DNA of 13,842 bases from Candidatus Micrarchaeota archaeon (GCA_043815135.1 JBDRJJ010000077.1:1-13842); one strand, 5' to 3'; numbered from the stretch's first letter, positions 567-12,352 are shown. Numbers and translations: made by a program. Notes: a model not told the origin generated them from the sequence alone.

Positions 567-1298
567 TTATTGGTACATCGGCCCGAGCCCTTCCACCCGT
601 TTGTAATGGTCGTGCGCGACTTTCGCGTTCTCCATCACGTCCTTAATCTTCGACTCGATGGTCTTGGACTCGTTCACGAGCTCTGCGGTGTCTATATCGA
701 CCCCTATAAGGGCCCTGAGCTTTTCAATCACCATCGCAGCGGCGAGCGGGTCCATGAAATCAGGTTTCGCCTCTGCAAGAAGGGATGCTGCGGGGAACCC
801 TTTTGAGGCGCACTCAGCAAGGAGCACGCCGCTCACGCCGGTAGTCGCGCCTTCCTTTATCCTCTTGACACCATTCGCCTCAAGCTTCTTTGCAATCTCC
901 GGGGTGCTCGCGATTCCGAACACCTCTTTCTGCTCGGCCTCAATCGAAATCCCGCCGAGCGAATAGATGGAGCTCACCTTGTGCTCTCTCGCCCACTCGG
1001 TTATTTCCGAAGCGAGGTGGTGTATCACTCCCATCGGGATTGTGAACTCGCTGAAAAGTACGACGAGGTTGTGCTTTTTCGACTTGTAAATCCTGGCAGG
1101 ATGGAGGGGCACGTAGTTATGGACAGCTGCAATCGGGGGGAACTTCTCGGAGACGATGTAGCCGAGCGGCTCCATCTTGAGCTTGTCGACAATGTAGCTT
1201 GCGGCAATAGTCCCAACGAGCCCAACTCCCGGGAATCCCTCAATCAGTATCGGCGACTTCAAGTCGAACTTCGAAACCTCTTTTATCCTGACGCTCAT
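567..1298 (-). CDS. PAC2-family proteasome assembly chaperone (archaeal COG1938-type)
   Basis: KSPILIEGFPGVGLVGTIAASYIVDKLKMEPLGYIVSEKFPPIAAV, followed by the PARIY..., LGGIS..., GATTGVSGVLLAE and DPLAAAMVIEKL blocks, matches the PAC2 pattern as I remember it. I use the internal ATG at 1298 (MSVRIKEV...; 243 aa, the usual family size) rather than the track start at 1493. That start would add 65 non-family residues and overlap the divergent gene. A TTTATAAA box sits 41-48 nt upstream of 1298. Confidence 0.8.
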   Translation of the reverse strand: MSVRIKEVSKFDLKSPILIEGFPGVGLVGTIAASYIVDKLKMEPLGYIVSEKFPPIAAVHNYVPLHPARIYKSKKHNLVVLFSEFTIPMGVIHHLASEITEWAREHKVSSIYSLGGISIEAEQKEVFGIASTPEIAKKLEANGVKRIKEGATTGVSGVLLAECASKGFPAASLLAEAKPDFMDPLAAAMVIEKLRALIGVDIDTAELVNESKTIESKIKDVMENAKVAHDHYKRVEGLGPMYQ

Positions 1299-1338
1299 AA
1301 AATCCCTCTCAAGAATGAGTAGGCATTCCATCCAGCTC

Positions 1339-1346
1339 TTTATAAA
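1339..1346 (-). promoter_or_regulatory. TATA-like box TTTATAAA upstream of the PAC2 start
   Basis: Palindromic A/T octamer 41-48 nt upstream of the ATG at 1298, in the divergent intergenic region. Confidence 0.4.
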
Positions 1347-1387
1347 CCTTTTCAGATTCTTCCAAAAAGAATCCGAAGGTCGATACA

Positions 1388-1395
1388 TTAAAATA
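1388..1395 (+). promoter_or_regulatory. TATA-like box TTAAAATA upstream of the plus-strand pilin-like operon
   Basis: Lies 31-38 nt upstream of the TTG at 1426. A GGTG lies 7 nt before that TTG. Confidence 0.3.
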
Positions 1396-1425
1396 CCATC
1401 CGAGAAATAGGTACGGTGCTCTCCA

Positions 1426-1749
1426 TTGCTAGATATAAACGCCCTCGTTTCGGTCTCTTGTTTCATCCTCTTTATGACAGGGGTCTTGTTCATCTATTAC
1501 CTCTCCAAAACATCGCAATACAATGAGGCATCCGAACTCCGGGCAAAACGGAGAATCGAGGACGTTGCGTATTATCTCTCGAAAATGGAAGAGCAGATAG
1601 AGGATTCGGAGTCGCAGCTCCAGAAGAAAATTGATGTCCAGGAGCTTGACACGAGAATAAACCTCTCAATATACGAGAACCTCGTCACAAGAGCGCTTCC
1701 CCAGAAGCTGAGCGCCAGGAAGCGAAAGGTGAGGGAAGATGACGATTGA
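1426..1749 (+). CDS. Single-pass membrane protein with a charged coiled-coil-like tail (hypothetical)
   Basis: The TTG start at 1426 is needed to include a full hydrophobic helix, ALVSVSCFILFMTGVLFIYYL. The next in-frame ATG (1474) would truncate it. The rest is heptad-like and charged (ELRAKRRIEDVAYYLSKMEEQIEDSESQLQKKIDVQELD). The gene overlaps the next one by 11 nt. The start codon is uncertain. Confidence 0.55.
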   Translation: MLDINALVSVSCFILFMTGVLFIYYLSKTSQYNEASELRAKRRIEDVAYYLSKMEEQIEDSESQLQKKIDVQELDTRINLSIYENLVTRALPQKLSARKRKVREDDD

Positions 1750-2464
1750 GGAACTAGGGCTGAGCTCGCAATCGCTTGTGCTGATGCTAGCGACTGCGCT
1801 GTTCCTCTATTGGCTTATGCGATACGCGGGTGGCCTGAAGCGGGAGGTGCACGAGAATCGCGCGAAGCTAGAGGAAGACATGCGCGAGCTCGAGGAGGTG
1901 GCGAAGAAGCTCGAGAACGACCTGGACAAGATGTACGGCAGGCTCGATGCCAAGGCGGACCAAACGCAGCTGGACCTGAAGCTCGAAGAGCTTGAGCGGA
2001 AGAGGGCGCAGATGATACAGAGCGCAGTGCAGCTCAAGAAGAAGGCCCAGGCATCGGTCGAGCTGATTGCCCTGTTCACACTGCTCCTGCTCCCAATAAT
2101 CGCCGGCTTCATTTACGCGTACTCCACTGTTTCAGACTCAAACAAGTTCAAGGCTGATGTCGCCCTGGACAGGATTGGGTCGACGGCAGAGCGGCTCTAT
2201 GTTGAGGGCCCGGGGGCAAGCGCCCAGGTGTTCGTGGACCTTCCCGGAAGCATCGACTCCGCGTCATCATACATTGGCTCTCCCTCTGGGGGGGAAGGGC
2301 CGTATCTATCGCTTAACGTATCCGGCTCGGAAACATTCAGGCTCCTTGCCTCCAACATGTCCGGGAACTGGCAGAATACGACCGGGGGGAAGGTGAAGCC
2401 CGGGTTCAATGCCTTCAACATGACGGTGAATTCATCCGGTTGCGTCGTCATTGTGCCGAGGTGA
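1739..2464 (+). CDS. Chimeric protein: N-terminal TM + coiled-coil module fused to a class III signal peptide (QxSxExxxL, DUF361-type) pilin-like domain
   Basis: ATG preceded by AGGTGA (1726-1731). Residues 1-90 form a TM helix (SLVLMLATALFLYWL) plus a charged heptad region. Residues 92-120 read MIQSAVQLKKKA|QASVELIALFTLLLLPIIAGFIYAY, an exact QxSxExxxL motif followed by a hydrophobic helix. The C-terminal domain has 5 N-x-S/T sequons. Confidence 0.7.
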   Translation: MTIEELGLSSQSLVLMLATALFLYWLMRYAGGLKREVHENRAKLEEDMRELEEVAKKLENDLDKMYGRLDAKADQTQLDLKLEELERKRAQMIQSAVQLKKKAQASVELIALFTLLLLPIIAGFIYAYSTVSDSNKFKADVALDRIGSTAERLYVEGPGASAQVFVDLPGSIDSASSYIGSPSGGEGPYLSLNVSGSETFRLLASNMSGNWQNTTGGKVKPGFNAFNMTVNSSGCVVIVPR

Positions 2465-2468
2465 GCTG

Positions 2469-2846
2469 TTGAGGGCCCAAGTCGCGATTGAATACGTGTT
2501 TGCAGTTTTCATGTGGCTGTTCGTGTGCACGGCCGTCTCATACGCGATAAGCCCATACATATCCGCCCTTGCGTCCCAGTCATCTCTTCGCGCCTATTCC
2601 TCCCAATCAGCCTGGCTTGGCGGGATAGGCTCATCTGATGTTGATGGCCTGAGATTCGCATATCGCCACACAAGGGTTGATGGCAACCTATCCTTCAACA
2701 ACACTTCGGTTGTGCTCGCAACGAAGGGAGACGAGTCCATAGCGGACTATGCAGCCAACTACTCATACTCCGATTTGATTGAGCGGGGCGATAAAGTGCT
2801 CCTGAGGATTCAAGACGGAACTCAGGTTGCAGTGAAGGTGGAATGA
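2469..2846 (+). CDS. Pilin-like protein with a very short class III signal peptide (MRA|QVAIEY...)
   Basis: The TTG at 2469 lies 4 nt after GAGGTGA (2458-2464). The product begins (M)RAQVAIEYVFAVFMWLFVCTAVSYAI, with Q+1, E+5 and a hydrophobic helix, and carries 4 sequons. The track start (TTG 2451) is the alternative and would give a 9-aa leader, MCRGELLRA. Confidence 0.65.
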   Translation: MRAQVAIEYVFAVFMWLFVCTAVSYAISPYISALASQSSLRAYSSQSAWLGGIGSSDVDGLRFAYRHTRVDGNLSFNNTSVVLATKGDESIADYAANYSYSDLIERGDKVLLRIQDGTQVAVKVE

Positions 2847-3347
2847 TTGAGGGCACAAATTGCTTCAATCGACCTCCTGCTATCAACAATAGCCCTCTCG
2901 GTACTCGCCCTCACGCTAATAACATTCATAGAGGCCGAAATCAGGAACACGGAGTCCGCGACCGCAGATGAGAGGCGCGATGCGTTCTCCTTTGCAGCAG
3001 TTCAAGAGCTCGCCCTCACCCCGGGAAGTCCGGAGAACTGGGACATCGATAGCTGCGAGAGAATCGGCCTCTCCTGCGCTGAAGGGGAGCTTTGTGCTGA
3101 AAAAATCTCCCTCCTCTCCTCGCTTTATTCGTCCGATTATAACGGGACAAAAAGGCTCCTGGGCCTAGGGGCATACGATGTTTCAATCCTCATATGCGCG
3201 CCTTACGACTATTCATCATGCGATTACAACTTCTCAACGCAGGCGAGGGAGGACGACCGCGCGGGCTCAAACCACGTCTCAAGGGCGGAGGCGCTCTCGA
3301 CACTGGGGGGAAAAACAGTTTCAGTAATCATTTACGCCTGGGAGTAG
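2847..3347 (+). CDS. Pilin-like protein with a very short class III signal peptide (MRA|QIASIDLLL...)
   Basis: The TTG at 2847 lies 4 nt after AGGTGGA (2836-2842) and immediately follows the upstream TGA stop. The product begins (M)RAQIASIDLLLSTIALSVLALTLITFI. The globular part has 5 Cys and 2 sequons. Confidence 0.65.
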   Translation: MRAQIASIDLLLSTIALSVLALTLITFIEAEIRNTESATADERRDAFSFAAVQELALTPGSPENWDIDSCERIGLSCAEGELCAEKISLLSSLYSSDYNGTKRLLGLGAYDVSILICAPYDYSSCDYNFSTQAREDDRAGSNHVSRAEALSTLGGKTVSVIIYAWE

Positions 3348-3348
3348 G

Positions 3349-3807
3349 CTAGCAGTCCGAATACTCCATCTGGTCGTAGACTCCGTTTTCAGCCACAACT
3401 GATATCCGGTTGTATCCTGTTGGGAGCGCAGAAGACGTATTGAATCGGGCAAGCTCCCCAGGCCTCCAGGCGTCAATAGTCGAGTATTCTACCCAGGAAT
3501 TGTCCCTATATAAGTGGATTGAATTAACCCCGAGCGCTGCGCCGCTCAGGAACACGTTAGTTGCATTCGCGTTTATGAAAGACGAGCCCACATTCTTAAC
3601 ATAGACATAAGTCGACCCGCCAAGATAGCAGGAGTCTCCGGTTATCTTTATCGAGGTCCTGAGCTGGGAGGAAAGGGCATCAGACTTTGCGTTGAAGCTT
3701 CCTGCAAGCGAGCTGACCGAAATAGACACGACCCCGACAATCGCGAGCGCGACTATCACGGACGCTATGAAGAAAATCGCCTCTGTGACGCTTGTTCCGA
3801 ATCCCAT
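3349..3807 (-). CDS. ArlF/ArlG (FlaF/FlaG)-family-like protein, short form
   Basis: The N-terminus, MGFGTSVTEAIFFIASVIVALAIVGVV, has no basic leader. That matches the unprocessed archaellin-like N-termini of FlaF/FlaG as I remember them. It is followed by SQLRTSIKITGD...YVYVKNVGSS, a beta-sandwich-type pattern. An AGGTG lies 4 nt upstream of the ATG. Which of ArlF or ArlG it is cannot be decided. Confidence 0.6.
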   Translation of the reverse strand: MGFGTSVTEAIFFIASVIVALAIVGVVSISVSSLAGSFNAKSDALSSQLRTSIKITGDSCYLGGSTYVYVKNVGSSFINANATNVFLSGAALGVNSIHLYRDNSWVEYSTIDAWRPGELARFNTSSALPTGYNRISVVAENGVYDQMEYSDC

Positions 3808-3818
3808 GAATACACCTG

Positions 3819-4784
3819 CTAGCTGCAGTCGTAGGTCGCACGCGCAGTCGCGCCGTTTTCGGTGACCACCGAAACAGCGTGTTCCTCGCTGCTGCTACTC
3901 ATATCGTAAAATACTATATTAATGTTTTTAGCCGGGGCAATCGTGAGGGCGCTCAAGTTCGAGTGGGAGTAAGTGACGACTAAATATGGGTCATTTTCCC
4001 TTCCGAAGGACTCGGTCTGCCACGGTCTGGCTATCGCGTAGTTGTTGTTGCCAGGGTCCCAATTGCTCCTCAGCTCGAAATCAGTGTCCCCCTGCCTGTT
4101 TATGTCGCTCTTTGGCACGCTCATGTTCTTCCAGCCAACTGTCCCGAGATAGTTGCTCGTGGCAAAATACGTGAAGTTGTTCCAGGCGGATTGGGTCAGG
4201 ACCCCGATTGCGTTGAATCCATAGTAATAATCGACATTCCAGGTCACGCTCGTGTCGCTCACAGTCTCGTTTACCTTCAGGTACAGCTCGGCATCGGTTA
4301 TGTCCGCCCCGTCGTTTAGGGAGGAGGTGTCGAAGCTGAAGTAGCTCCGATAATACGTGTCCCCGCCCCTCCTGTCCCTCCCTATCCAGGACACATTCGT
4401 AGTATTGTAAACAGTATAAGACGAGCCGTCAAATTGAATGTACCCGTCAGCACTGCTCGAGGAATAGAACTTCGCAGTCGTAGTCGCGTTCTTCAGCTGG
4501 AGAACCTCGTTGTTGTCGAACACGGTGAGCTTCCTGAAAGCGAGCTGCGTTGAGCCCGTGTTGTTGACTACCACTGTCAGGTTATACTTATTGCACGACC
4601 CCTGGACCGAGATGCCCGTTATTTGAAGCGAGGACTGCTGGGCCGAGGAAACGATTTGCCCCTGCTCCCCCAAGCCACCTGAAATGCCCCGAATCCCGGA
4701 TTCGACCACCGGGTAGGCAATCACGAGCGCCCCGGCTACCCCCAACAGAATTATTATCACTGCAGCAGAGGCGCTTAACCCCAT
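3819..4784 (-). CDS. ArlF/ArlG-family-like protein with a ~175-aa inserted beta-rich (DNRLRE-like) module
   Basis: N-terminus MGLSASAAVIIILLGVAGALVIAY, then SSLQITGISV...YNLTVVVNNTGST. The C-terminal strands (HAVSVVTENGATARATYDCS) align with those of the 152-aa neighbour (RISVVAENGVYDQMEYSDC). Residues ~100-275 have no counterpart there and contain RSYFSFDTSSL, ITDAELYLKV, SVTWN and DPYLVVTY. There are 9 N-x-S/T sequons. Confidence 0.6.
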   Translation of the reverse strand: MGLSASAAVIIILLGVAGALVIAYPVVESGIRGISGGLGEQGQIVSSAQQSSLQITGISVQGSCNKYNLTVVVNNTGSTQLAFRKLTVFDNNEVLQLKNATTTAKFYSSSSADGYIQFDGSSYTVYNTTNVSWIGRDRRGGDTYYRSYFSFDTSSLNDGADITDAELYLKVNETVSDTSVTWNVDYYYGFNAIGVLTQSAWNNFTYFATSNYLGTVGWKNMSVPKSDINRQGDTDFELRSNWDPGNNNYAIARPWQTESFGRENDPYLVVTYSHSNLSALTIAPAKNINIVFYDMSSSSEEHAVSVVTENGATARATYDCS

Positions 4785-4816
4785 TCAGTTCCCCGAATAG
4801 GAATCGCTACAGCTGC

Positions 4817-4824
4817 TTAAATTA
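4817..4824 (-). promoter_or_regulatory. TATA-like box (TAATTTAA on the minus strand) upstream of the 3819..4784 gene
   Basis: Lies 33-40 nt upstream of the ATG at 4784, directly after the oligo-T tract that follows the MinD-like gene. Confidence 0.35.
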
Positions 4825-4831
4825 CTTTTGG

Positions 4832-4844
4832 AAAAAAGAAAAAA
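4832..4844 (-). terminator. Oligo-T tract TTTTTTCTTTTTT (minus strand) abutting the MinD-like stop codon
   Basis: The plus strand reads AAAAAAGAAAAAA at 4832-4844, and the stop codon (minus) is at 4845-4847. This is a typical archaeal oligo-T terminator signal. Confidence 0.45.
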
Positions 4845-5591
4845 CTAGAAGAACCTTGCGACAAGCTGCCTGAAGTAGCTCGGAGGCGAGTACGAAACAT
4901 CCGCAAGCGCTGCCCCGAATTTCTTCATCTCCACCGAATACTTGCTGTACGGCTTGTGGTGGACGACCGGTCTTCCATATTCGACGCTCTCAATCACGTT
5001 CTCGTCGTATGGGAGGATTCCGAGAACATCTGCCCCAATCCAGTCCTCTGCTTCCTTCTCGACCTTGCCCCAGTTCCTCCTGACCTTGTTCACCACTGTC
5101 CCGAGGACATCGAGGCCATGCTTCTCAGCAACCTTCTTGGTCTTCAAAGTGTTCGCATACGAGGTGATTTCCGGGGTAGTAAGGAGCACCACCTTGTCCG
5201 CGAGCTTCATGGATTCCACGGTGTTCTCGCCCAATGTCCCGGGCGCGTCCAGGAGAATCACGTCTGAGATGCCTTCCATGTTATCGACGATTTCGCCCAT
5301 GTGCTTGGGCTTCACAACGCTCATGTCATCTACAGATAAGCTTGAAGCGACTACTCGCACCCCGGTCGGGTGGTCGAACACAGCGTCCTTCACATGGACC
5401 CCCTCTGCAACTACGTCGTGTATTGTCTTCTTCGGAAACGGCGGGCCGAGGATGCACCCCAAGTCCCCATTAGTAAGGTTCCCGTCCAGAATCACAACAT
5501 CGACTCCGAATTGCGATAGCGCAATGCCAAGGTTCGCCACAAAGTTGCTCTTTCCAACCCCTCCTTTTCCTGAGGCCACAGTTATTATCAT
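4845..5591 (-). CDS. MinD/ParA/FlhG-family ATPase (deviant Walker A)
   Basis: MIITVASGKGGVGKSNFVANLG carries a deviant Walker A (KGGxGKS) with the signature lysine. Other motifs are VVILDGNLTNGDLG (switch region) and VILLDAPG (Walker B). The C-terminal YFRQLVARFF could be an amphipathic membrane-targeting helix. I use the ATG at 5591, preceded by GCGAGGG, and not the GTG at 5651. Confidence 0.85.
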   Translation of the reverse strand: MIITVASGKGGVGKSNFVANLGIALSQFGVDVVILDGNLTNGDLGCILGPPFPKKTIHDVVAEGVHVKDAVFDHPTGVRVVASSLSVDDMSVVKPKHMGEIVDNMEGISDVILLDAPGTLGENTVESMKLADKVVLLTTPEITSYANTLKTKKVAEKHGLDVLGTVVNKVRRNWGKVEKEAEDWIGADVLGILPYDENVIESVEYGRPVVHHKPYSKYSVEMKKFGAALADVSYSPPSYFRQLVARFF

Positions 5592-6177
5592 ATTTATCCC
5601 TCGCCCATTTTTTCCTAAGCTGGTGTTTAAGATAAGCCGCCTTCTCCTCACGGGAAAGCGAATCGAAATTCACGTTGTCCCATAAGCTGGCAGTTTCAAC
5701 TTCAGTAATAGCGGGAGCAGCCTTGCTGCCCTGGCTTTTTTCCTCAACAATAATCGCGTTCTCCAGCTCCATAATCGGGTCGAAAGGCTCTGCTTTCTTC
5801 GGCATTTCGGGTCCCTGGGGCCCGCTCACGTCCCCGGGCAGCACTTTCCCAAGCGAATCCGCGCTCTCGCAAACCTTTGCCTCCGCCTCGCACTGAGTCG
5901 CATCCTGGGAGACCGCGATGTCTTTCAAGGAAAGCTTCGGTTCGTCTATCTCCCCGTTCTTGACTTTCCAGTAGTACATTTTCTCCATTTCAAGCTCAGC
6001 CCCTATCACGTCTGATGGCAGGCAATACCCAAGCTCCCTGACATTCCTTATGAACCCTTCCCAGTTGACGTGGTCCCAGGACCCATCATTGGCTCTCACA
6101 AAATCTTGCATGAGGTTGGAAGATTTGAGCCTCTCGAGCTCATCCGTATCGAAAGCTATCGCCGACTGCTCTTCCAT
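5470..6177 (-). CDS. Acidic hypothetical protein; the 3' end overlaps the MinD-like gene out of frame
   Basis: ATG at 6177. The ~190-aa body is acidic (WDHVNWEGFIRNVRELGY..., EMEKMYYWKVKNGE...) with no motif I recognise. The last ~40 codons (WARDKYDNNCGLRKRRGWKEQLCGEPWHC...) are an out-of-frame reading of the MinD P-loop region, so the true C-terminus is doubtful. Confidence 0.55.
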   Translation of the reverse strand: MEEQSAIAFDTDELERLKSSNLMQDFVRANDGSWDHVNWEGFIRNVRELGYCLPSDVIGAELEMEKMYYWKVKNGEIDEPKLSLKDIAVSQDATQCEAEAKVCESADSLGKVLPGDVSGPQGPEMPKKAEPFDPIMELENAIIVEEKSQGSKAAPAITEVETASLWDNVNFDSLSREEKAAYLKHQLRKKWARDKYDNNCGLRKRRGWKEQLCGEPWHCAIAIRSRCCDSGREPY

Positions 6178-6332
6178 CTTGTTTACCCCGGACTTTCAAA
6201 CTGGTCGCTAAAATTGTCCCTGCCGGGGTATTTAAGCATTTGCTTTCTTCCACTAATTTTCGAGGGAGAGAGCCAAAACGAATTAACGGTTCAAGCAGAG
6301 TCCCATAGCTTCAACGATTGCAAACGCTAAAC

Positions 6333-6340
6333 ATTTAAGT
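6333..6340 (+). promoter_or_regulatory. TATA-like box ATTTAAGT upstream of the hydrogenase operon
   Basis: Lies 34-41 nt upstream of the ATG at 6374, within a 196-nt divergent intergenic region. Confidence 0.35.
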
Positions 6341-6373
6341 TCATCCTGTTCCAATCATTTTGCTCGTGGTTAG

Positions 6374-7318
6374 ATGCACAGAATGGCGAAGGGCGACCTT
6401 TCAAAGTTTCTCGATTTCCTCTCGAAAAGAGGAGAGCTCATAGTTCCTGTGAAAAGGGACGGGGTTTCATTCTTCAAGGGTTACGAGAAGGGCGACAGGC
6501 TTTTCTTGGGCAAGGGAAATACGGACTATTCCCCGAAGCAGTTTTTCTTTCCATACAAAGAAGTAATGTATTATTACAGCAAGCAGGGGGACTTCGAGTG
6601 TGCGCAGAAGCCATCAAAGAGAATCCTCTTCGGGGTTCGGCCCTGCGACCTTCATGCAATTGCAGTGACCGACATGTTCTTTTCAGACGAGCCGGCGGAT
6701 CCGCACTACCATGAAAGAAGGAGGAACACCGCGCTCATTGCAGTCGACTGCACGACCCCCGGGAAGAACTGCTTCTGCGATTCGCTTGATAAAAGGAACC
6801 CAATCGGCCACGACATACTCATAACAGTCGACAAGGAATACTACCACGCAAGCTCTGCCACCCAGGAAGGGAAGAATATTCTCGAAGAGAGCGGACTATT
6901 TGCCGAAACAGATGACTCCCCCAAGATTAAGAAAATCCCATGCAAGAAGAAGGCCGAACCAGTCGACCAGTCCAAAGTCAAATGGGAAAAATGGGGGAAG
7001 GCGTGCTTTGCCTGCGCTGCATGCACAAGCGTCTGCCCCACCTGCACGTGCTTTGATGTGGAGGACGAGATTCAATTGAATGGGGGGAAGACCGAGAGGT
7101 CAAGGATTTGGGCGTCCTGCTTCACCAAGGATTTCACGACAGTGACTGGCGGCCACTGCTTCAGGCCGGAGAGGAAAGAGATGCTGAGGCAGTTTGTGAA
7201 TCACAAGTTCCCATATTTCAAGGAGAAGTTCGGTGTGACGATGTGCGTCGGCTGCGGGCGATGCATCACCGTTTGCACTGCAAAGATTGACATATCAAAA
7301 ATGATTAGCGGAAAATAA
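6374..7318 (+). CDS. hydB: Group 3b [NiFe]-hydrogenase (sulfhydrogenase) beta subunit, AsrA-like 4Fe-4S protein
   Basis: Two ferredoxin-type motifs, CFACAACTSVCPTC and CVGCGRCITVC, plus the CDLHAI and CTTPGKNCFC blocks. It is the first gene in a beta-gamma-delta-alpha order, as in the Pyrococcus hydBGDA operon. The start could be 6383 (MAKGD...). Confidence 0.8.
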   Translation: MHRMAKGDLSKFLDFLSKRGELIVPVKRDGVSFFKGYEKGDRLFLGKGNTDYSPKQFFFPYKEVMYYYSKQGDFECAQKPSKRILFGVRPCDLHAIAVTDMFFSDEPADPHYHERRRNTALIAVDCTTPGKNCFCDSLDKRNPIGHDILITVDKEYYHASSATQEGKNILEESGLFAETDDSPKIKKIPCKKKAEPVDQSKVKWEKWGKACFACAACTSVCPTCTCFDVEDEIQLNGGKTERSRIWASCFTKDFTTVTGGHCFRPERKEMLRQFVNHKFPYFKEKFGVTMCVGCGRCITVCTAKIDISKMISGK

Positions 7319-7355
7319 TTATGCAAAAATTGAATGGAATGTTGTAGGTGCTCGA

Positions 7356-8150
7356 ATGGAAGACCCGTATTTACCAAAGAAAGTGAAAATCCTCAAAATC
7401 ATACAGGAGACTTCCGACATCAAGACCTTCATTGTTGAGAACGTCCTCCCAGCGCATTCCCCCGGTCAGTTCGTAGAACTTACAGTTTACGGGGTTGGCG
7501 AGGCCCCAATCTCAATCTCGAGCGCCTACCCGGATATGATACTCACCGTGAAAAAACTCGGCACAGTGACGAGCGCCTTGTTCGAGCTAAGGGAGGGAGA
7601 CTGCATCGGCATTCGCGGCCCCTATGGCAAGGGGTGGCCGATGGAGCAACTGAAGAACAGGAACGCAATACTCATCTGCGGAGGAGTTGGGCTTCCGCCG
7701 CTGAGGGGGATAGTCTACTCGAGGCTCAAGGAAAAGAGCGGCTCGACCATTCTCTGCTACGGGGCGAGGACCCCGGAAGACATGGTCTACAGGAGCGAGC
7801 TTGAGGACTGGACCAAAAACGGAATTTCAGTTAATACCACTGTCGATACCTGCCCGATAGGCTGGAAAGGCAATGTCGGAGTCGTAACCTGCATCATGGA
7901 CAGGGCATTAACGAAGGACGAGAACGCAATATGCGTGATGTGCGGACCCCCGGTGATGATGAAGTTTGCGGCAAAGATGCTCATCGACAAGGGTTTTTCC
8001 AAGGACCAGATTTTCGTTTCATTGGAGAGGATGATGAAGTGCGGGGTCGGAAAGTGCGGCCACTGCATGGCGGGCGGAAAATGCGTCTGCAAGGAAGGAC
8101 CTGTTTTCAGGTTTGATGAACTGGAGGGTCTTCCGGAGAGAATGCTGTGA
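7356..8150 (+). CDS. hydG: Group 3b hydrogenase gamma subunit (FAD/NAD(P)-binding, 2Fe-2S; AsrB/PyrK-like)
   Basis: GQFVELTVYGVGEAPISISS is the flavin-binding barrel, CGGVGLPPLRG is the GGxGxxP nucleotide-binding motif, and the C-terminal CGVGKCGHCMAGGKCVCKEGPVF is the 2Fe-2S motif. An AGGTG lies 7 nt upstream of the ATG. Confidence 0.85.
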   Translation: MEDPYLPKKVKILKIIQETSDIKTFIVENVLPAHSPGQFVELTVYGVGEAPISISSAYPDMILTVKKLGTVTSALFELREGDCIGIRGPYGKGWPMEQLKNRNAILICGGVGLPPLRGIVYSRLKEKSGSTILCYGARTPEDMVYRSELEDWTKNGISVNTTVDTCPIGWKGNVGVVTCIMDRALTKDENAICVMCGPPVMMKFAAKMLIDKGFSKDQIFVSLERMMKCGVGKCGHCMAGGKCVCKEGPVFRFDELEGLPERML

Positions 8151-8154
8151 TAAC

Positions 8155-8919
8155 ATGAAGAAGAAAAGAGTCGCAATATTCAGCCTGACCTGCTGCGCGG
8201 GTTGCCAGCTTGAAGTTCTTGACAACCCGGAGCTATTGGACATGCTCGAACACATCGACATCGTCAAGTTTCCGATAGCGATTGCAAGGAACGAGCCGGG
8301 CCCTTATGACATCGTATTTGTTGAGGGAATGGTCACGACTCCGGGAGAGATAGAAATCGTAAAGCGGATTAGGGGCAGCGCAAGATTCCTCATCGCAATT
8401 GGCGCCTGCGCCTGCTACGGGGGAGTCCCGACAATAAGAAACATGCTCCCGCAGAGAGAAGCAGAGTCAATAGTCTATGGGGACAGGAACGAGCACATCC
8501 GCTCGATAAAGCCTACAGGGGTCTCCGAATACGTGAAGGCCGATTACCTGATTCACGGCTGCCCGATAAACAAAGACGAGTTCTCGCAGGTGGTGAAGGC
8601 CCTTCTTGCAGGCAAGCTCCCGCGGGCACACACGCATTCGGTCTGCGTAGAGTGCAAGGCAAAGGGAAACAAGTGCCTATTCAACGAGCAGATATGCATG
8701 GGGCCCATCTCAATTGCAGGCTGCGGGGCAACATGCCCCAGCAACGGCCTTGCCTGCTACTCGTGCCGGGGCCCGAAAGAGGACGCGAACGTGGATGAGT
8801 TCATAATTCTCGCAAGAAAGCAGGGATATCTCGATGCTGAAATCAGGGGACTCCTCCAAAAGTTCGCCTGCACGTCCAAGTACAAAAAATATCTCGAGTG
8901 CCTAGATGGCGAAAAGTGA
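8155..8919 (+). CDS. hydD: Group 3b [NiFe]-hydrogenase small (delta) subunit
   Basis: MKKKRVAIFSLTCCAGCQ, GACACYGG and HGCP match the proximal-cluster ligands of hydrogenase small subunits. CVECKAKGNKC and AGCGATCPSNGLACYSCRGP supply further clusters. I use the ATG at 8155, 4 nt after the gamma stop, rather than the track start at 8113, which overlaps gamma. Confidence 0.85.
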   Translation: MKKKRVAIFSLTCCAGCQLEVLDNPELLDMLEHIDIVKFPIAIARNEPGPYDIVFVEGMVTTPGEIEIVKRIRGSARFLIAIGACACYGGVPTIRNMLPQREAESIVYGDRNEHIRSIKPTGVSEYVKADYLIHGCPINKDEFSQVVKALLAGKLPRAHTHSVCVECKAKGNKCLFNEQICMGPISIAGCGATCPSNGLACYSCRGPKEDANVDEFIILARKQGYLDAEIRGLLQKFACTSKYKKYLECLDGEK

Positions 8920-8928
8920 GTTGTTCCT

Positions 8929-10194
8929 ATGGCGGTAATAAAACTTGACCACATCACAAAAATCGAAGGGCACGGCAGCCTGATTGCCAAGGTCGAGAAC
9001 GGTTTTGTTAGCGAGGTGGAGATGAGGGCCGAGGAAGGGGTTCGCTTCTTCGAGGCATTTGTGCGGGGCCGGAAGTTCCACGAGGTCCCGATACTCACTT
9101 CGCCGATTTGCGGGATATGCAGCCAAGCCCACGTGCTTGCGTCGATTTCAGCGATAGAGCGGGCAATCGGGGTGGAACCCTCGCAGCAGACGAAGGAGAT
9201 GCGCGAGCTCTTGAACATAGGTCAGTACATACAGAGCCACAACATCCATGCGCATTTTCTCGCACTTCCGGATTACCTAGGTTACGGTGACGCCATACAG
9301 ATGATGGACAAGCACGGGGATGCGGTAAGAAGGGCGCTGAAGTTCAAGAGGTGGGCGAGTTCGTTCTGCACCCTCATGGGCGGGAGGGACATGCACCCCG
9401 TGGCCGCGCAGGTGGGGGGATTCACGCATTTCCCGGACAAGAGGAGGCTCTCGGAGATGCTGAAGCTTTTGAAAGAACTGCGGCCAGAGGCAATGAAAGT
9501 CGCTGAGCTCTTCGGCTCTCTCCAATACCCTAAGTTCAAGAGGAAGAAGCCCTACGGCTCCCTTTCAGCAGACAAGGGCTATCCGCTAATCTCTGGTGAC
9601 ATAACCATCGGCTCGATGACGTTCAAGCCCCACGAATACAAGGACTACATTGTCGAGTCAATAAAACCTTATTCTCCGAGCAAGTACTCGCTTTTCAAGG
9701 GTGAGAGCTACTTTGTCGGTGCGCTTGCGAGGGTGAACAACAATCTCCCAAGGCTCTCTGACAACGCCAAGGTGGCAATCTCCCATTCCGAAATAAACTT
9801 CCCGAACGACAACACGTTCGCAAACAACTTTGCCCAGGCAATAGAAATAGTTCATTGCGTGGACAGGGCAATCGAGATACTCGAGAACGCAAATTTCAAG
9901 AAAGAACCCTGGGACCTGAAGAAGATAAAGGTTAATGACGGGAGGGGAGTAGGCACCGCCGAAGCCCCGCGCGGGACGCTCTACCACGATTACACGATAA
10001 GGAAAGGGCTCGTGGAGTCAGCAAACATAATCACCCCAACAGTTCAGAATCTCAACTGCATCGAGGACGACGTGAAAGCATTCCTGCCGGGAATTCTTGA
10101 AAAAGACGAGAAGACAGTAACCATGGAGCTCGAGAAGCTCGTCAGGGCTTTCGACCCCTGCTGCTCCTGCTCGGTTCATTTCATGAAAATCTAG
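8929..10194 (+). CDS. hydA: Group 3b [NiFe]-hydrogenase large (alpha) catalytic subunit
   Basis: N-terminal KIEGHG and PICGICSQAH (CxxC Ni-Fe ligands). C-terminal DPCCSCSVH (second CxxC) is followed by only FMKI before the stop. The 421-aa length fits the short group 3 large subunits. Confidence 0.9.
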   Translation: MAVIKLDHITKIEGHGSLIAKVENGFVSEVEMRAEEGVRFFEAFVRGRKFHEVPILTSPICGICSQAHVLASISAIERAIGVEPSQQTKEMRELLNIGQYIQSHNIHAHFLALPDYLGYGDAIQMMDKHGDAVRRALKFKRWASSFCTLMGGRDMHPVAAQVGGFTHFPDKRRLSEMLKLLKELRPEAMKVAELFGSLQYPKFKRKKPYGSLSADKGYPLISGDITIGSMTFKPHEYKDYIVESIKPYSPSKYSLFKGESYFVGALARVNNNLPRLSDNAKVAISHSEINFPNDNTFANNFAQAIEIVHCVDRAIEILENANFKKEPWDLKKIKVNDGRGVGTAEAPRGTLYHDYTIRKGLVESANIITPTVQNLNCIEDDVKAFLPGILEKDEKTVTMELEKLVRAFDPCCSCSVHFMKI

Positions 10195-10202
10195 GTGGGG
10201 GA

Positions 10203-10727
10203 ATGAAAGCAGATGCTTTCACAATTCTATTGTGCATTTTCTTTATCGGCTGTGCCACCAATAGCAACACGGAGGCGGTTCAGATGGGAGAACTCAAGAT
10301 TTCAAGCCAGGCTTTCAACCACAATGGAATGATTCCGGCGAAATTCACTTGCAAAGGGGAAAACATCAGCCCCGCGCTCGAGATTTCCGGAATCCCGAAT
10401 GGGGCAAAAAGCCTCGCCTTGATTGTGGACGACCCGGATGCTCCGATGGGAACGTGGGTGCACTGGGTAGTCTGGAACATCCAACCAATCCAAAAAATCG
10501 ATGAGGGCTCGGTGCCACCAGGCTCCTCCCAAGGGATAACTGACTTCGGGAAACCCGGGTATGGGGGGCCTTGCCCGCCTTCTGGGACCCATAGGTATTT
10601 CTTCAAGCTTTATGCTCTTGATTCTGTTCTGAACCTGCCGCCAACTTCTAAAAAATCAGACCTGGAGAATGCGATGAAGGGACACATCCTTGAGAAAGCG
10701 GAATTAGTGGGTTTGTTTTCGAAATAG
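10203..10727 (+). CDS. YbhB/YbcL (PEBP / Raf-kinase-inhibitor-like) family protein with a lipoprotein-type signal peptide
   Basis: DDPDAP, W.HW.V.N, GYGGPCPP.G.HRY.F.LYALD are PEBP hallmark motifs. The N-terminus, MKADAFTILLCIFFIGCATNS, is a hydrophobic core plus an FIGC lipobox-like motif. The start lies 8 nt after the hydA stop and is preceded by AGGTGGGGG. Confidence 0.85.
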   Translation: MKADAFTILLCIFFIGCATNSNTEAVQMGELKISSQAFNHNGMIPAKFTCKGENISPALEISGIPNGAKSLALIVDDPDAPMGTWVHWVVWNIQPIQKIDEGSVPPGSSQGITDFGKPGYGGPCPPSGTHRYFFKLYALDSVLNLPPTSKKSDLENAMKGHILEKAELVGLFSK

Positions 10728-11108
10728 TTCGCTCAGCAATTCCCCAACTTCCCCTACTGCCTCGCTTGCTTCCATCCCCCCGGGGATTCCCACAACCTTT
10801 ATCGCTTTTCCCTCTTTTGCAAGCAGCTTCAGATAAAACGCGACATCGATGTCATGCGCAGTAATCGTTCTCGAGGTTTTCAGCTCCTCCACATCCACAA
10901 ATCGAACCCGCTCGAGCCCCTTCACAACGTCAAGGACAACAACGGAATCCAGCTCGCTTGCGGAAAGTTTGTCAATCTCCCCGAAATCAAGCCCGCACTC
11001 GATAACCTCGAGCCCGCGGAGTTTTCTTTTTTTGATTATTTTTCCCACTTCGAGCGCAAGCCTGTCTTTTTCATTATGGGAATTGCCGAAGCAGAGCAGT
11101 TTCATCAT
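10704..11108 (-). CDS. Hydrogenase maturation endopeptidase (HycI/HybD-family-like)
   Basis: KLLCFGNSHNEKDRLALEVG matches the GNxxxxDD-type motif, VVVLDVV the second acidic ligand block, and TAHDIDVAFYLKLL the conserved His block. The 134-aa size and the location beside a hydrogenase operon also fit. The family is divergent, so this is motif-level only. Confidence 0.65.
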   Translation of the reverse strand: MMKLLCFGNSHNEKDRLALEVGKIIKKRKLRGLEVIECGLDFGEIDKLSASELDSVVVLDVVKGLERVRFVDVEELKTSRTITAHDIDVAFYLKLLAKEGKAIKVVGIPGGMEASEAVGEVGELLSELFRKQTH

Positions 11109-11117
11109 AACGGCCCC

Positions 11118-11867
11118 CTAACTCAGCACGTTTGCCTTGTTGAGGTTGAACATTCCGTATCCTACCGCAATAAGCGCCCAAGTGGAGAAAAGCACCAAGA
11201 AGAGCAGCTTCCACCACCTGCCTTTCGAGCGCTCAAGGTGGAAGTCGAACCCATGCGCGACTATGTGCGAGACCAAATAAATCGCCGCGACATTGATGAA
11301 GCCTTCCGCGCCCCGGGTCCAAGGATAAGAGAGCGCAATAACCGCAAGGACAAGGCCATGAATAAGGCTGTCCTTTACCCCGTGATTCACGGAAATCCTT
11401 AGCTGCGCAAGAAACGCAGTCACAAACAGAACTACCATGGCAGCAGCGAACATCGAGCCCATGGCCGAGATGTTCGTTCCCTGAATCCTGATTCCCAAAA
11501 AAAGCATCGCATACGGGGCAGCAATAATCGCAATCATCGAGCTCCAGCTTCTCATTGAGGGGAAAATCGAGTGGTAAGACCAGCTCTCGACAAAAATGCT
11601 CCTGCCTTTCGGGTCCTCGAACACCCTCCCAGCGTAGACGGACCTCTTCCCATACTTCTTTTTCTTGTCCTCAGTCCTTATGCGGGAGAGTACATTGTCC
11701 TCCCCATATGGCCCCTCATAGCCGCTCGGGGTTTCAATGCGCACATGGTCCTCGGGGATATCATACTCAGGGGTCTTGTTGCTCTTGGGCATGAACCCCC
11801 CCGCGCTGTTATCCCATTGGAAAGTCCAATCATCGGCCGTCTTTTTATTCCTACGTGCCCTCGCCAT
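11118..11867 (-). CDS. Hypothetical membrane protein (soluble basic N-domain plus ~5 TM helices containing His residues)
   Basis: ATG at 11867. The ~100-aa hydrophilic N-domain is followed by hydrophobic segments (MIAIIAAPYAMLFLGI, MGSMFAAAMVVLFVTAFLAQL, LIHGLVLAVIALSYPW, INVAAIYLVSHIVAHGF, WWKLLFLVLFSTWALIAVGYGMF). It ends 9 nt before the protease start on the same strand. No family recognised. Confidence 0.6.
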   Translation of the reverse strand: MARARRNKKTADDWTFQWDNSAGGFMPKSNKTPEYDIPEDHVRIETPSGYEGPYGEDNVLSRIRTEDKKKKYGKRSVYAGRVFEDPKGRSIFVESWSYHSIFPSMRSWSSMIAIIAAPYAMLFLGIRIQGTNISAMGSMFAAAMVVLFVTAFLAQLRISVNHGVKDSLIHGLVLAVIALSYPWTRGAEGFINVAAIYLVSHIVAHGFDFHLERSKGRWWKLLFLVLFSTWALIAVGYGMFNLNKANVLS

Positions 11868-11888
11868 CGATTAGTTGTAAAGCAAACA

Positions 11889-11898
11889 ATATAATAAA
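11889..11898. promoter_or_regulatory. A/T-rich box ATATAATAAA in the divergent spacer between the membrane-protein gene and the NfeD gene
   Basis: Lies ~22 nt from the minus-strand ATG at 11867 and ~20 nt from the plus-strand GTG at 11918. It is flanked by a short inverted repeat, AAACAA/TTGTTT (11884-11889 / 11901-11906). Confidence 0.3.
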
Positions 11899-11917
11899 CG
11901 TTGTTTCTAATTATTTC

Positions 11918-12352
11918 GTGGTTGATTTCGCTATAGGCAAGGTTTTTATCGTCGTGGGAACCCTAATGCTTGCAGGCGAGCTCGCAATTCCCGGTTTTTT
12001 CATGGGTGGGGTGGGGGTCGCATTCATTGTAGCAGGTGCCCTCATGGAATTGGGAATCAATTCCCCGGAATGGATTGCAACTGCAAGCATTCTGGCCGGC
12101 TTGTTCTCAATACTATTCTTTTATTTCGTGGGCAGGTGGCTCACAGGCCACGTCAAGGTCGCAACCGGCACAGAGTCCATAGTCGGGGCGAGGGGAAAGG
12201 TAATCGAGTCGCTTGATGAGGGCAAATGCGTTGTCAAGATAAAGGGCGAGGACTGGAGTGCTGAATGCGAGGGCAGGCTCAAGAAAGGGGAAAAGGTAGA
12301 GGTAACGGGACACGAGGGAGTCCACCTGACAGTTAAAAAAGCAGAGGACTGA
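11918..12352 (+). CDS. NfeD-family protein, short form (TM helices plus C-terminal OB-fold; no protease domain)
   Basis: Hydrophobic N-half (GELAIPGFFMGGVGVAFIVAGALMELG..., ILAGLFSILFFYFVGRWL). The C-terminal GARGKVIESLDEGKCVVKIKGEDWSAECEGRLKKGEKVEVTGHEGVHLTV is the typical NfeD OB-domain pattern. It sits directly upstream of an SPFH gene, the classic pairing. The start is ambiguous: GTG 11918, GTG 11954 or ATG 11966. The track start at 11855 would overlap the divergent gene. Confidence 0.75.
   Translation: MVDFAIGKVFIVVGTLMLAGELAIPGFFMGGVGVAFIVAGALMELGINSPEWIATASILAGLFSILFFYFVGRWLTGHVKVATGTESIVGARGKVIESLDEGKCVVKIKGEDWSAECEGRLKKGEKVEVTGHEGVHLTVKKAED

What the first reader, a model, noticed from the sequence alone, without database searches (positions are those of the whole stretch)
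1739..2464. Prepilin embedded behind a ~100-aa TM+coiled-coil leader, with a nested canonical start at 2012
The exact QxSxExxxL motif (KKKA|QASVELIAL) sits at residues 101-112 of a 241-aa ORF, not near the N-terminus. Upstream of it lie a full TM helix and ~60 residues of charged heptad-like sequence. An in-frame ATG at 2012, preceded by GAAGAGGG, would give a textbook prepilin: MIQSAVQLKKKA|QASVE... (150 aa). By the positive-inside rule the full-length form is topologically coherent: N-out TM1, cytoplasmic coiled coil, basic KKK at the cytoplasmic face, and the pilin helix heading out. A prepilin peptidase could therefore cleave it into an anchor protein plus a mature pilin. Either reading, two nested products or a polyprotein-like prepilin with a giant leader, is unusual for class III signal peptides, which are normally short.
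Basis: partly seen in the sequence, partly recalled or inferred. Interest (0 to 1): 0.65.

Follow-up and report, generated by a model that had tools for sequence, protein, structure and literature searches.

The report
Pilin fused behind a membrane protein
In a small group of tiny uncultured archaea (Micrarchaeota), a pilus-subunit gene is fused in frame behind a complete small membrane protein, so the site where the pilin-trimming enzyme normally removes a few residues lies about 100 residues into the protein.

Summary
ORF 1739-2464 (241 aa) reads TM helix, about 70 aa of heptad coiled coil, KKKA|QASVELIAL at residues 100-112, the pilin helix, then a beta-rich head with five N-glycosylation sequons.

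It is a real, conserved gene fusion, not an artefact. Eighteen relatives (40-94% identity) keep one open frame. The leader is under purifying selection like the pilin part (pN 0.14-0.30, pS 0.54-0.95).

The nested ATG at 2012 is not conserved. It is CTC (Leu) in the sister genus, and there is no Met near the site in the most distant fused relative.

New here: the leader is a full-length copy of a free-standing 85-125 aa TM+coiled-coil protein family found in other Micrarchaeota (hhalign 98.4%, E 8e-15). The closest unfused ortholog is a 145-aa pilin with leader MRA|Q, lying inside an archaellum operon.

The cut-site residues are kept: -2 K/R, -1 A/G, +1 Q, +3 S, +5 E in 19 of 19. The genome encodes an A24 prepilin peptidase. 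One cut would most likely release two working proteins, but this is inferred, not shown.

Published leaders are 6-30 aa. This scan noted the same fusion earlier in another genome (e1-2477570).

The parts
1426..1749 (+). Upstream 107-aa gene (TTG start): short N-tail, one TM helix, charged helical tail. It is a stand-alone paralog of the leader and overlaps the next start by 11 nt.
   Evidence: ORF. (BLASTP against the leader, E 7e-6). (hhalign of the two families, 96.2%, E 2.3e-9). (found only in the genomes that also carry the fusion).
1727..1735 (+). Shine-Dalgarno-like AGGTGAGGG, 3 nt before ATG 1739.
   Evidence: A GGAGG or GGTG motif 5-10 nt upstream of the conserved ATG is present in all five genomes. 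The same GGTG core precedes pilin2, pilin3, the ArlG-like gene and other genes of the window.
1739..2464 (+). Fused ORF, 241 aa: membrane coiled-coil module joined to a class III pilin-like protein.
   Evidence: 18 relatives of 234-262 aa keep one open frame over the full length.
1766..1819 (+). TM helix 1 (residues 10-27), predicted N-terminus outside.
   Evidence: hydropathy; no K/R and two acidic residues before it, five K/R after it. (helix 10-37 in the model). W25 and R28-Y29-A30 are invariant.
1820..2035 (+). Cytoplasmic charged heptad (coiled-coil) region, residues 28-99. A variable-length linker (0-21 aa inserted in relatives) follows its end.
   Evidence: 3.5-residue periodicity. (helices 41-69 and 75-98). 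(insertions). (pN 0.10-0.32 against saturated pS).
2012..2014 (+). Nested in-frame ATG (Met92). Present in this genus only.
   Evidence: ATG in G000, G001 and G002; CTC in G004 and G005. M in 7 of 18 sequences, L in 9, I in 1, deleted in 1.
2036..2050 (+). Basic cluster and predicted prepilin-peptidase site, K100-K-K-A103 | Q104.
   Evidence: across 19 fused proteins, -2 is K (18) or R (1), -1 is A (18) or G (1), and +1 Q, +3 S and +5 E are each 19 of 19. All four GCN codons are used at Ala -1.
2048..2122 (+). Pilin alpha-1N hydrophobic helix (TM helix 2), residues 104-128.
   Evidence: KD up to 2.53. (a continuous helix of 52-56 residues starting at the site).
2123..2461 (+). Extracellular part: the rest of alpha-1 plus a small beta-rich head. 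N-glycosylation sequons at N193, N206, N213, N227 and N231.
   Evidence: sequons. (AF2 of the mature part: pLDDT 72.9, helix 2-57 then seven strands). (66 homologous clusters).
2469..2846 (+). Second pilin-like gene. Likely TTG start at 2469, giving MRA|QVAIEY (3-residue leader).
   Evidence: GAGGTGAGCTG before the TTG; orthologs have [KR][GA]|Q close to their N-terminus.
2847..3347 (+). Third pilin-like gene, MRA|QIASID.
3349..3807 (-). ArlG-like protein (archaellin-type N-terminal helix), convergent with the pilin genes.
   Evidence: PF01917, 3.4e-16. (NF052591 ArlG, 3e-19, below the curated cut-off).
3819..4784 (-). ArlF-like protein with an inserted DNRLRE-like segment.
   Evidence: NF052590 ArlF, 1.1e-13 over residues 1-101; DNRLRE domain, 4e-5. 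Both are below their curated cut-offs.

Best explanation
ORF 1739-2464 is a genuine gene fusion that is conserved within one lineage.

A complete copy of a small free-standing membrane protein has been joined in frame to the first of three Q(+1) class III pilin-like genes. That protein has an N-out TM helix and about 70 residues of cytoplasmic coiled coil. The three pilin-like genes belong to an archaellum-linked gene set. The whole 241-aa protein is translated from ATG 1739.

It should insert as a helical hairpin: N-terminus outside, coiled coil in the cytoplasm, pilin helix crossing outwards, and a glycosylated head outside. That places the intact K-K-K-A|Q-x-S-x-E site at the cytoplasmic membrane face, where the genome's A24 prepilin peptidase works.

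The most likely mechanism is a single cut after Ala103. This would regenerate the two ancestral products:
- a 103-aa membrane coiled-coil protein, which is a paralog and likely partner of the upstream gene's product;
- a 138-aa mature pilin starting at Gln104.
The two would be made in 1:1 amounts at the same place.

Shown: the fusion, its conservation, translation of the leader, the origin of the leader, retention of the site, and presence of the peptidase. Inferred: the topology, the cleavage, and any function of the released leader.
For: Fusion conserved:
- 16 full-length relatives of 234-262 aa at 62-94% identity.
- A further fused cluster, P0019, at 40% identity that keeps W25, R28-Y29-A30, K88-R89 and other leader residues.
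- No stops inside any genomic match.
- The start ATG and its SD are conserved in five genomes.

Leader translated:
- pN 0.14-0.30 against pS 0.54-0.95, similar to the head domain at pN 0.10-0.24.

Leader equals a free-standing protein:
- The leader profile finds open frames of 89-139 aa in 18 other genomes of the class. These correspond to called proteins of 85-125 aa.
- hhalign of leader against the free-standing set gives 98.4%, E 8e-15, over 80 columns, almost end to end.
- The paralogous upstream gene gives 96.2%, E 2.3e-9.
- Control: the leader against an unrelated coiled coil (ArlC) gives 0.3%.

Ancestral state is short:
- The syntenic ortholog in G013 is 145 aa with leader MRA|Q.
- Among 66 homologous clusters, only the two fused ones start the pilin module beyond about residue 27.

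Site kept:
- -2 K/R, -1 A/G, +1 Q, +3 S and +5 E in 19 of 19, with four different Ala codons at -1 and a variable linker just upstream.

Peptidase present:
- Peptidase_A24 at 28.9 bits (cut-off 26.5), 311 aa, with DVFNNRNVPN and GGAD motifs.

Topology:
- Charges and sequons fit the proposed orientation.
- There is a helix break exactly at residues 99-104 in the model.

Background knowledge: a pilin's N-terminus packs in the filament core, so a 100-aa TM extension is incompatible with normal assembly. Yet the pilin part is as strongly conserved as in unfused relatives.
Against: - No experimental or read-level evidence of cleavage.
- No prepilin peptidase is known to remove a leader longer than about 30 residues or one that contains a TM helix (PMC4471445, PMC10191384).
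- The window's own protein does not reach Pfam PF04021.
- The full-length model is of low confidence (pLDDT 54).
- Conservation of the site residues could also reflect constraints on the helix rather than on cleavage.
- TM1 is only marginally hydrophobic by Kyte-Doolittle (1.62).
- The function of the free-standing family is unknown, and its other genomic contexts are not pilus loci.
Confidence: 0.6

Rival explanations
1. The fusion protein is not cleaved. It stays as a two-TM protein whose pilin-like half is permanently tethered to a cytoplasmic coiled coil. For example, it could be a basal, anchoring or terminating subunit, comparable to ArlF/ArlG, which keep their pilin-like N-terminal helix unprocessed.
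For: - No precedent exists for peptidase removal of a leader of about 100 aa that contains a TM helix (PMC4471445, PMC10191384).
- ArlF/ArlG-like unprocessed pilin-like proteins sit next door.
- The variable linker before the site would also suit a flexible tether.
Against: - The residues a peptidase needs stay invariant over 40-94% identity while the adjoining linker varies freely: small -1 (A/G), basic -2, Q+1.
- The only change at -1 is between the two residues allowed there.
- The leader equals a protein that works untethered in other lineages.
- The pilin half is conserved like its unfused, processed-type orthologs.
Confidence: 0.25
2. Two nested products. Ribosomes also, or mainly, start at ATG 2012 and make an ordinary 150-aa prepilin with a 12-residue leader. 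The long form is then a second or minor product.
For: In this genome and two same-genus genomes, an in-frame ATG lies 12 (or 30-31) codons before Q+1. In two of the three genomes it is preceded by GAGGG.
Against: - Codon 92 is CTC in G004 and G005. Those genomes have no in-frame ATG/GTG/TTG within 22-28 codons of Q+1.
- Position 92 is L or I in 10 of 18 relatives and is deleted in one.
- P0019 has no Met within 65 residues of the site.
- GAGGG is lost in G001.
- SD-like cores are common in this GAG/AAG-rich region, with 13 four-mers in 309 nt.
- Real starts here use GGTG.
- No A/T-rich promoter-like box lies upstream of 2012.
- Met/Leu alternation is normal at a heptad core position.
Confidence: 0.1
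3. Artefact: a mis-assembly, a sequencing frameshift or a wrongly extended ORF joining two separate genes.
For: None beyond the unusual architecture. The genome is a fragmented MAG (196 contigs, 71% complete).
Against: - The same continuous frame is found in at least 18 independent assemblies from several sources.
- Synteny is conserved.
- The leader shows protein-level selection.
Confidence: 0.01

Closest known systems
Archaeal Q(+1) class III signal-peptide pilins (Pfam PF04021 Class_IIIsignal / DUF361; the EppA-type substrates of Methanococcus maripaludis such as EpdA-E)
   Same: [KR]-[GA] | Q-x-S-x-E-x-x-x-L followed by about 20 hydrophobic residues, then a small head. Thirteen of 26 homologs of the mature part match PF04021. 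The operon neighbours pilin2 and pilin3 carry the same site.
   Different: In those pilins the motif sits 3-27 residues from the N-terminus. Here it sits at residue 103, behind a TM helix and a coiled coil. The window's own protein does not reach the Pfam model.
Long-leader bacterial pilins (type IVb and Tad/Flp; Streptococcus sanguinis PilE)
   Same: They are the known upper end of leader length, and they are removed by an A24 aspartic peptidase at the cytoplasmic face.
   Different: Published leaders are 6-26 aa, or about 15-30 aa for type IVb (PMC4471445). A 26-aa archaellin leader was called unusually long (PMC12448462). All are hydrophilic, and none contains a TM helix or corresponds to an independent protein.
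ArlF / ArlG (archaellum stator proteins with unprocessed pilin-like N-terminal helices)
   Same: They are membrane-anchored pilin-like proteins in archaellum loci, and they are direct neighbours here. They are the best analogue if the fusion is not cleaved.
   Different: ArlF and ArlG have one TM helix at the very N-terminus and no conserved peptidase site. The fusion has two TM helices and an intact site.
Modular pilins (for example S. sanguinis PilB and PilC)
   Same: An extra functional module is grafted onto a pilin.
   Different: In those proteins the module is C-terminal, extracellular and stays on the pilin. Here it is N-terminal, cytoplasmic or membrane-bound, and lies before the cut site.
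ArlX (FlaX) and PilN/PilO-type monotopic TM + coiled-coil accessory proteins
   Same: One N-terminal TM helix followed by a coiled coil, encoded beside type IV filament genes.
   Different: No sequence relation was detected. No such family appeared among Pfam or NCBIfam hits at E <= 0.1, and ArlC gave hhalign 0.3%. The free-standing relatives of the leader are mostly not in pilus loci.

Membership tests
Type IV pilin-like protein with class III signal peptide (archaeal Q+1 / PF04021 type) | Small residue (G/A) at -1 preceded by basic residue(s) | tested here: met
   K-K-K-A at residues 100-103. Across 19 fused proteins, -1 is A (18) or G (1) and -2 is K (18) or R (1).
Type IV pilin-like protein with class III signal peptide (archaeal Q+1 / PF04021 type) | QxSxExxxL motif opening a hydrophobic helix of about 20 residues | tested here: met
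   Q104, S106, E108 and L112. KD 2.0-2.5 over residues 103-132. Q, S and E are each 19 of 19.
Type IV pilin-like protein with class III signal peptide (archaeal Q+1 / PF04021 type) | Motif at the N-terminus behind a short hydrophilic leader (6-30 aa in the literature) | tested here: not met
   The leader is 103 aa (96-122 in relatives) and contains a TM helix. Homologs have 3-27 aa. Literature ranges come from PMC4471445.
Type IV pilin-like protein with class III signal peptide (archaeal Q+1 / PF04021 type) | Match to the curated profile PF04021 | tested here: not met
   No hit for the window's protein at E <= 0.1 or E <= 1. Thirteen of 26 homologs of the mature part do match (best 9.8e-5).
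Type IV pilin-like protein with class III signal peptide (archaeal Q+1 / PF04021 type) | Homology to bona fide short-leader pilins | tested here: met
   phmmer finds 66 clusters at E <= 1e-3, and 64 of them have the site near the N-terminus. The syntenic 145-aa ortholog is 44% identical.
Type IV pilin-like protein with class III signal peptide (archaeal Q+1 / PF04021 type) | Lollipop fold: long alpha-1 helix plus beta head | tested here: inconclusive
   The AF2 model of the mature part has pLDDT 72.9, helix 2-57, then seven strands. Foldseek against the PDB gave no match at E <= 0.001. A profile search of the PDB gave an archaeal flagellin as best hit, at E 0.019 only.
Type IV pilin-like protein with class III signal peptide (archaeal Q+1 / PF04021 type) | Processing by a prepilin peptidase and assembly by a type IV machinery | not testable with these tools
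   The genes are present in the genome: Peptidase_A24, T2SSE ATPases and T2SSF platforms. Cleavage itself was not observed.
Free-standing Micrarchaeota TM + coiled-coil small-protein family (uncharacterised) | Sequence homology over TM helix and coiled coil | tested here: met
   hhalign of the leader against the free-standing set: 98.4%, E 8e-15, 80 columns. HMM hits at E 1e-7 to 6e-12 in 18 genomes.
Free-standing Micrarchaeota TM + coiled-coil small-protein family (uncharacterised) | Independent gene of 85-125 aa, paired with a second small TM-helical gene | tested here: not met
   The leader copy has no stop and runs on into the pilin. The pairing is kept: the upstream gene 1426-1749 holds the partner's position. 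Its similarity to the partner set is weak (43.8%).
ArlX / ArlC-type archaellum coiled-coil components | Detectable sequence relation | tested here: not met
   hhalign against G013 ArlC gives 0.3%. No Arl coiled-coil family appears among Pfam or NCBIfam hits at E <= 0.1. No ArlX sequence was compared directly.

The most novel reading that the evidence does not exclude
The prepilin peptidase acts here as a polyprotein-processing enzyme. It cuts an internal class III site that lies behind a transmembrane helix. This releases a functional bitopic membrane protein (the 'leader') together with a mature pilin. It would be the first natural case in which a class III leader peptide is itself a protein with a life of its own. 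It would also show that A24 peptidases accept membrane-anchored leaders of 100 aa or more.
Probability: 0.55. Interest if true: 0.72.

Novelty: new variant of a known kind. Interest (0 to 1): 0.6.

Why it matters
Class III signal peptides are defined by a short hydrophilic leader, and prediction tools (FlaFind, PilFind, SignalP) assume the site is N-terminal.

A conserved natural protein with the site about 100 residues in, behind a TM helix, matters in three ways:
- It would stretch the known substrate range of prepilin peptidases.
- It would give a simple natural test of what these enzymes recognise: local site or whole leader.
- It would show a new way of coupling the production of a pilin and a membrane scaffold protein 1:1.

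It also means that pilin censuses miss such proteins. The case sits in DPANN archaea, whose surface filaments are thought to mediate host contact.

Tried and rejected
- Pfam and NCBIfam on the full protein and on the upstream gene gave only insignificant coiled-coil noise.
- Foldseek of the full-length model (pLDDT 54) and of the better mature-part model (pLDDT 72.9) against the PDB gave no match at E <= 0.001. The head fold stays unclassified.
- A profile search of PDB sequences gave an archaeal flagellin as best hit, at E 0.019, through the N-terminal helix only.
- A second word-index search with the 150-aa nested product returned only the same fused family and no close short form.
- A relation of the leader to the archaellum coiled-coil protein ArlC was rejected (hhalign 0.3%).
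- The bacterial-type promoter and terminator scan was uninformative for an archaeon.
- P0019 and P0018 came from the representatives library. They could not be looked up for genomic context under the tools' rules, so I did not try.
- The tree of mature parts leaves open whether the short P0018 is a secondary loss or fission of the leader, or a mis-called start.

Full report
**What is in the sequence.** ORF 1739-2464 (+) is open and encodes 241 aa. Its parts, in order, are:
- a short acidic N-tail (MTIEELGLS);
- a hydrophobic helix at residues 10-27;
- about 70 charged residues whose hydrophobic periodicity peaks at 3.5 residues (0.89, against 0.42-0.49 at neighbouring periods);
- the block K100-K-K-A103 | Q104-A-S-V-E108-L-I-A-L112;
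- a strongly hydrophobic helix (Kyte-Doolittle up to 2.5);
- a C-terminal region of about 110 residues that carries all five N-x-S/T sequons.

The in-frame ATG at 2012 (Met92), preceded by GAAGAGGG, is there as described. The only correction is that the basic-plus-motif block spans residues 100-112.

**Organism and neighbourhood.** Relatives are annotated as Candidatus Micrarchaeota MAGs. The window is contig C77 of a 0.95-Mb, 71%-complete assembly.

The plus-strand genes are packed tightly:
- a 107-aa TM + coiled-coil gene (1426-1749), overlapping the next start by 11 nt;
- the fused ORF;
- two further pilin-like genes whose likely TTG starts give three-residue leaders, MRA|QVAIEY at 2469 and MRA|QIASID at 2847.

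Convergent on the minus strand are an ArlG-like gene, an ArlF-like gene and an archaeal MinD. No A/T-rich box lies inside the fused ORF upstream of 2012. TATA-like boxes lie in the divergent intergenic region 1299-1425 (this is a direct reading and therefore an inference).

**Is the fusion real?** Yes.
- A search of 5.8 billion proteins returns 16 full-length relatives of 234-262 aa at 62-94% identity, plus one truncated call.
- Genome searches find the uninterrupted frame in all four other genomes of two genera of the family, with no stops. Gene order is conserved: PAC2 | TM-coiled-coil gene | fusion | pilin2 | pilin3, convergent with the ArlG-like gene.
- An all-against-library phmmer search with the mature part finds a second, more distant fused cluster, P0019 (251 aa, 40% identical overall). 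Its leader aligns end to end and keeps W25, R28-Y29-A30, E45, E59, K72, D74 and K88-R89.
- The start ATG is conserved. A GGAGG or GGTG motif precedes it by 5-10 nt in five genomes.

**Is the leader translated?** Nei-Gojobori counts on five genomes give pN 0.14-0.30 for residues 1-100, with synonymous sites near saturation (pS 0.54-0.95). The pilin helix gives pN 0.03-0.20 and the head gives 0.10-0.24. The leader is therefore a protein-coding region under purifying selection in this frame.

**Is the nested start selected?** No.
- Codon 92 is ATG only in the window's genus. It is CTC (Leu) in both genomes of the sister genus, which have no in-frame ATG/GTG/TTG closer than 22-28 codons to Q+1.
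- Across 18 proteins, the position is M in 7, L in 9, I in 1 and deleted in 1.
- P0019 has no Met within 65 residues of its site.
- The GAGGG before the ATG is lost in same-genus genome G001.
- SD-like four-mers are frequent in this GAG/AAG-rich stretch, 13 in 309 nt.
- Well-defined starts of the window use a GGTG core, which the nested ATG lacks.

Some initiation at 2012 in this particular genome cannot be excluded. It is not the conserved way the gene works.

**Where the two halves come from.**

*The pilin half.*
- Among 66 homologous clusters, the pilin module begins at residue 2-27 in all but the two fused clusters. The site consensus is [KR][GA]|Q[ASTV][ST]xE.
- Half of a sample of these homologs match Pfam Class_IIIsignal, PF04021.
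- The nearest unfused ortholog (G013, another family of the order; 44% identity) is 145 aa and starts MRA|QVSFEY.
- It is the first of the same three-pilin series. There it lies in a complete archaellum operon: arlB, arlB, arlC, arlD/E, arlF, arlG, pilin1-3, convergent with arlJ and arlI.
- Among 41 relatives, ArlD/E (all 41 searched) was found only in the six genomes that hold close pilin1 orthologs. Archaellins, checked in five of the genomes, were present in the four of those six that were examined and absent from G003.

*The leader half.*
- It is homologous to the upstream 107-aa gene (BLASTP E 7e-6; hhalign 96.2%, E 2.3e-9).
- More tellingly, it is homologous to free-standing proteins of 85-125 aa found in 18 genomes of other families of the class.
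- Against a set of five of these, hhalign gives 98.4%, E 8e-15, over 80 columns, which is nearly the full length of both.
- An unrelated coiled coil (ArlC) gives 0.3%. The signal is therefore not mere composition.
- In all five loci inspected, the free-standing genes come as a pair with a second small TM-helical gene just upstream. They end in basic tails (RKKR, KSRR, STRK). They do not sit in pilus loci.

*Inferred history.* A two-gene membrane coiled-coil module came to lie upstream of pilin1. Its second gene lost its stop and the pilin lost its start. A tree of mature parts puts 17 fused proteins in one well-supported clade (98/96). P0019 and one short protein (P0018) form a weakly joined sister group. 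A single origin is not excluded, and one later loss or a mis-called start is possible.

**How it most likely works.** Charge distribution and the sequons predict N-out, coiled coil in the cytoplasm, and head outside. This puts K-K-K-A|Q at the cytoplasmic face, where A24 peptidases cut (PMC10191384).

The residues such enzymes need are kept in 19 of 19 fused proteins:
- -2 is K or R;
- -1 is A (18) or G (1), the only two residues allowed there;
- +1 Q, +3 S and +5 E are invariant.

All four Ala codons are used at -1. A linker that varies by 0-21 residues lies immediately upstream.

The genome encodes an A24 peptidase (28.9 bits, cut-off 26.5) with DVFNNRNVPN and GGAD motifs, as well as T2SSE and T2SSF proteins. 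Both structure models break the helix exactly at residues 99-104 and then run a helix of 52-56 residues into a small beta head.

One cut would give back the two ancestral proteins. The N-terminal product would be a paralog, and a plausible coiled-coil partner, of the upstream gene's product. I put this at about 0.6. The main rival is an uncleaved two-TM tethered pilin-like protein comparable to ArlF/G, at about 0.25.

**Comparison with what is known.** Reviews give leader lengths of 6-26 aa, or about 15-30 aa for type IVb, and describe leaders as hydrophilic (PMC4471445). A 26-aa archaellin leader was called unusually long (PMC12448462). The archaeal type IV pilus census does not mention pilins with long or membrane-spanning leaders (PMC4858521).

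The protein works like a class III pilin precursor but fails the defining feature 'short N-terminal leader'. I therefore file it as a new variant of a known kind. This scan had already noted the same architecture in another genome (e1-2477570). My analysis was done independently on this window and agrees with it.

**Limits.**
- Cleavage, topology and function were not observed.
- The head fold has no significant match in the PDB.
- The function of the free-standing family is unknown.

Noticed in passing
L030 (G013:C2:3000-20000), 4064-12304: In another Micrarchaeota family, the three small Q(+1) pilin-like genes sit inside a complete archaellum operon: arlB, arlB, arlC, arlD/E, arlF, arlG, pilin1-3, convergent with arlJ and arlI. 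Among 41 relatives, close pilin1 orthologs were found in exactly the six genomes with ArlD/E. A pilin triad as an archaellum-linked set is not part of the canonical seven-component description.
   Followed up: partly
L041-L045 (for example L044 1459-2096, L043 1483-2045): Free-standing relatives of the leader occur in other Micrarchaeota families as conserved tandem pairs of small TM + helical genes (about 85-102 aa and 102-120 aa). They often overlap by 4 nt and lie in unrelated genomic contexts. This is an uncharacterised two-gene membrane module.
   Followed up: partly
window 2035-2036 (between residues 99 and 100); alignment A1 columns 100-118: Relatives carry insertions of 1-21 residues exactly between the coiled coil and the basic cluster before the cut site. 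One lineage has an acidic DDEEEAEEKKGSQKG linker.
   Followed up: partly
window 2451-2480 and 2836-2858: Both downstream pilin genes appear to start at TTG behind a GGTG motif. This gives three-residue leaders (MRA|Q), at the extreme short end for class III signal peptides.
   Followed up: partly
window 3819-4784 (-): The ArlF-like protein is 321 aa rather than about 140. A segment resembling a DNRLRE domain is inserted (NCBIfam 4e-5, below the cut-off).
   Followed up: no
window 6374-10194 (+): A four-gene cytoplasmic NiFe-hydrogenase-like cluster: a 4Fe-4S dicluster protein, an NAD-binding/FeS protein, an Oxidored_q6 small subunit, and a NiFeSe_Hases large subunit ending in DPCCSCSVH. It is followed by a PEBP gene, an NfeD gene and two SPFH genes. 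This is notable for a small DPANN genome.
   Followed up: partly
window 567-1493 (-): The listed PAC2 ORF (308 aa) is probably over-extended. Orthologs start at M(S/T/A)VRIKEV (243 aa), which corresponds to ATG at 1298. That leaves a 127-nt divergent intergenic region with two TATA-like boxes (TTTATAAA near 1340, TTAAAATA at 1388-1395).
   Followed up: no
P0018 (148 aa) against P0019 (251 aa), tree: A short-leader pilin (MPAYSNTRNG|Q) groups weakly with the distant fused protein P0019. This could be a secondary loss or fission of the leader, or a mis-called start. Its genomic context could not be examined.
   Followed up: no
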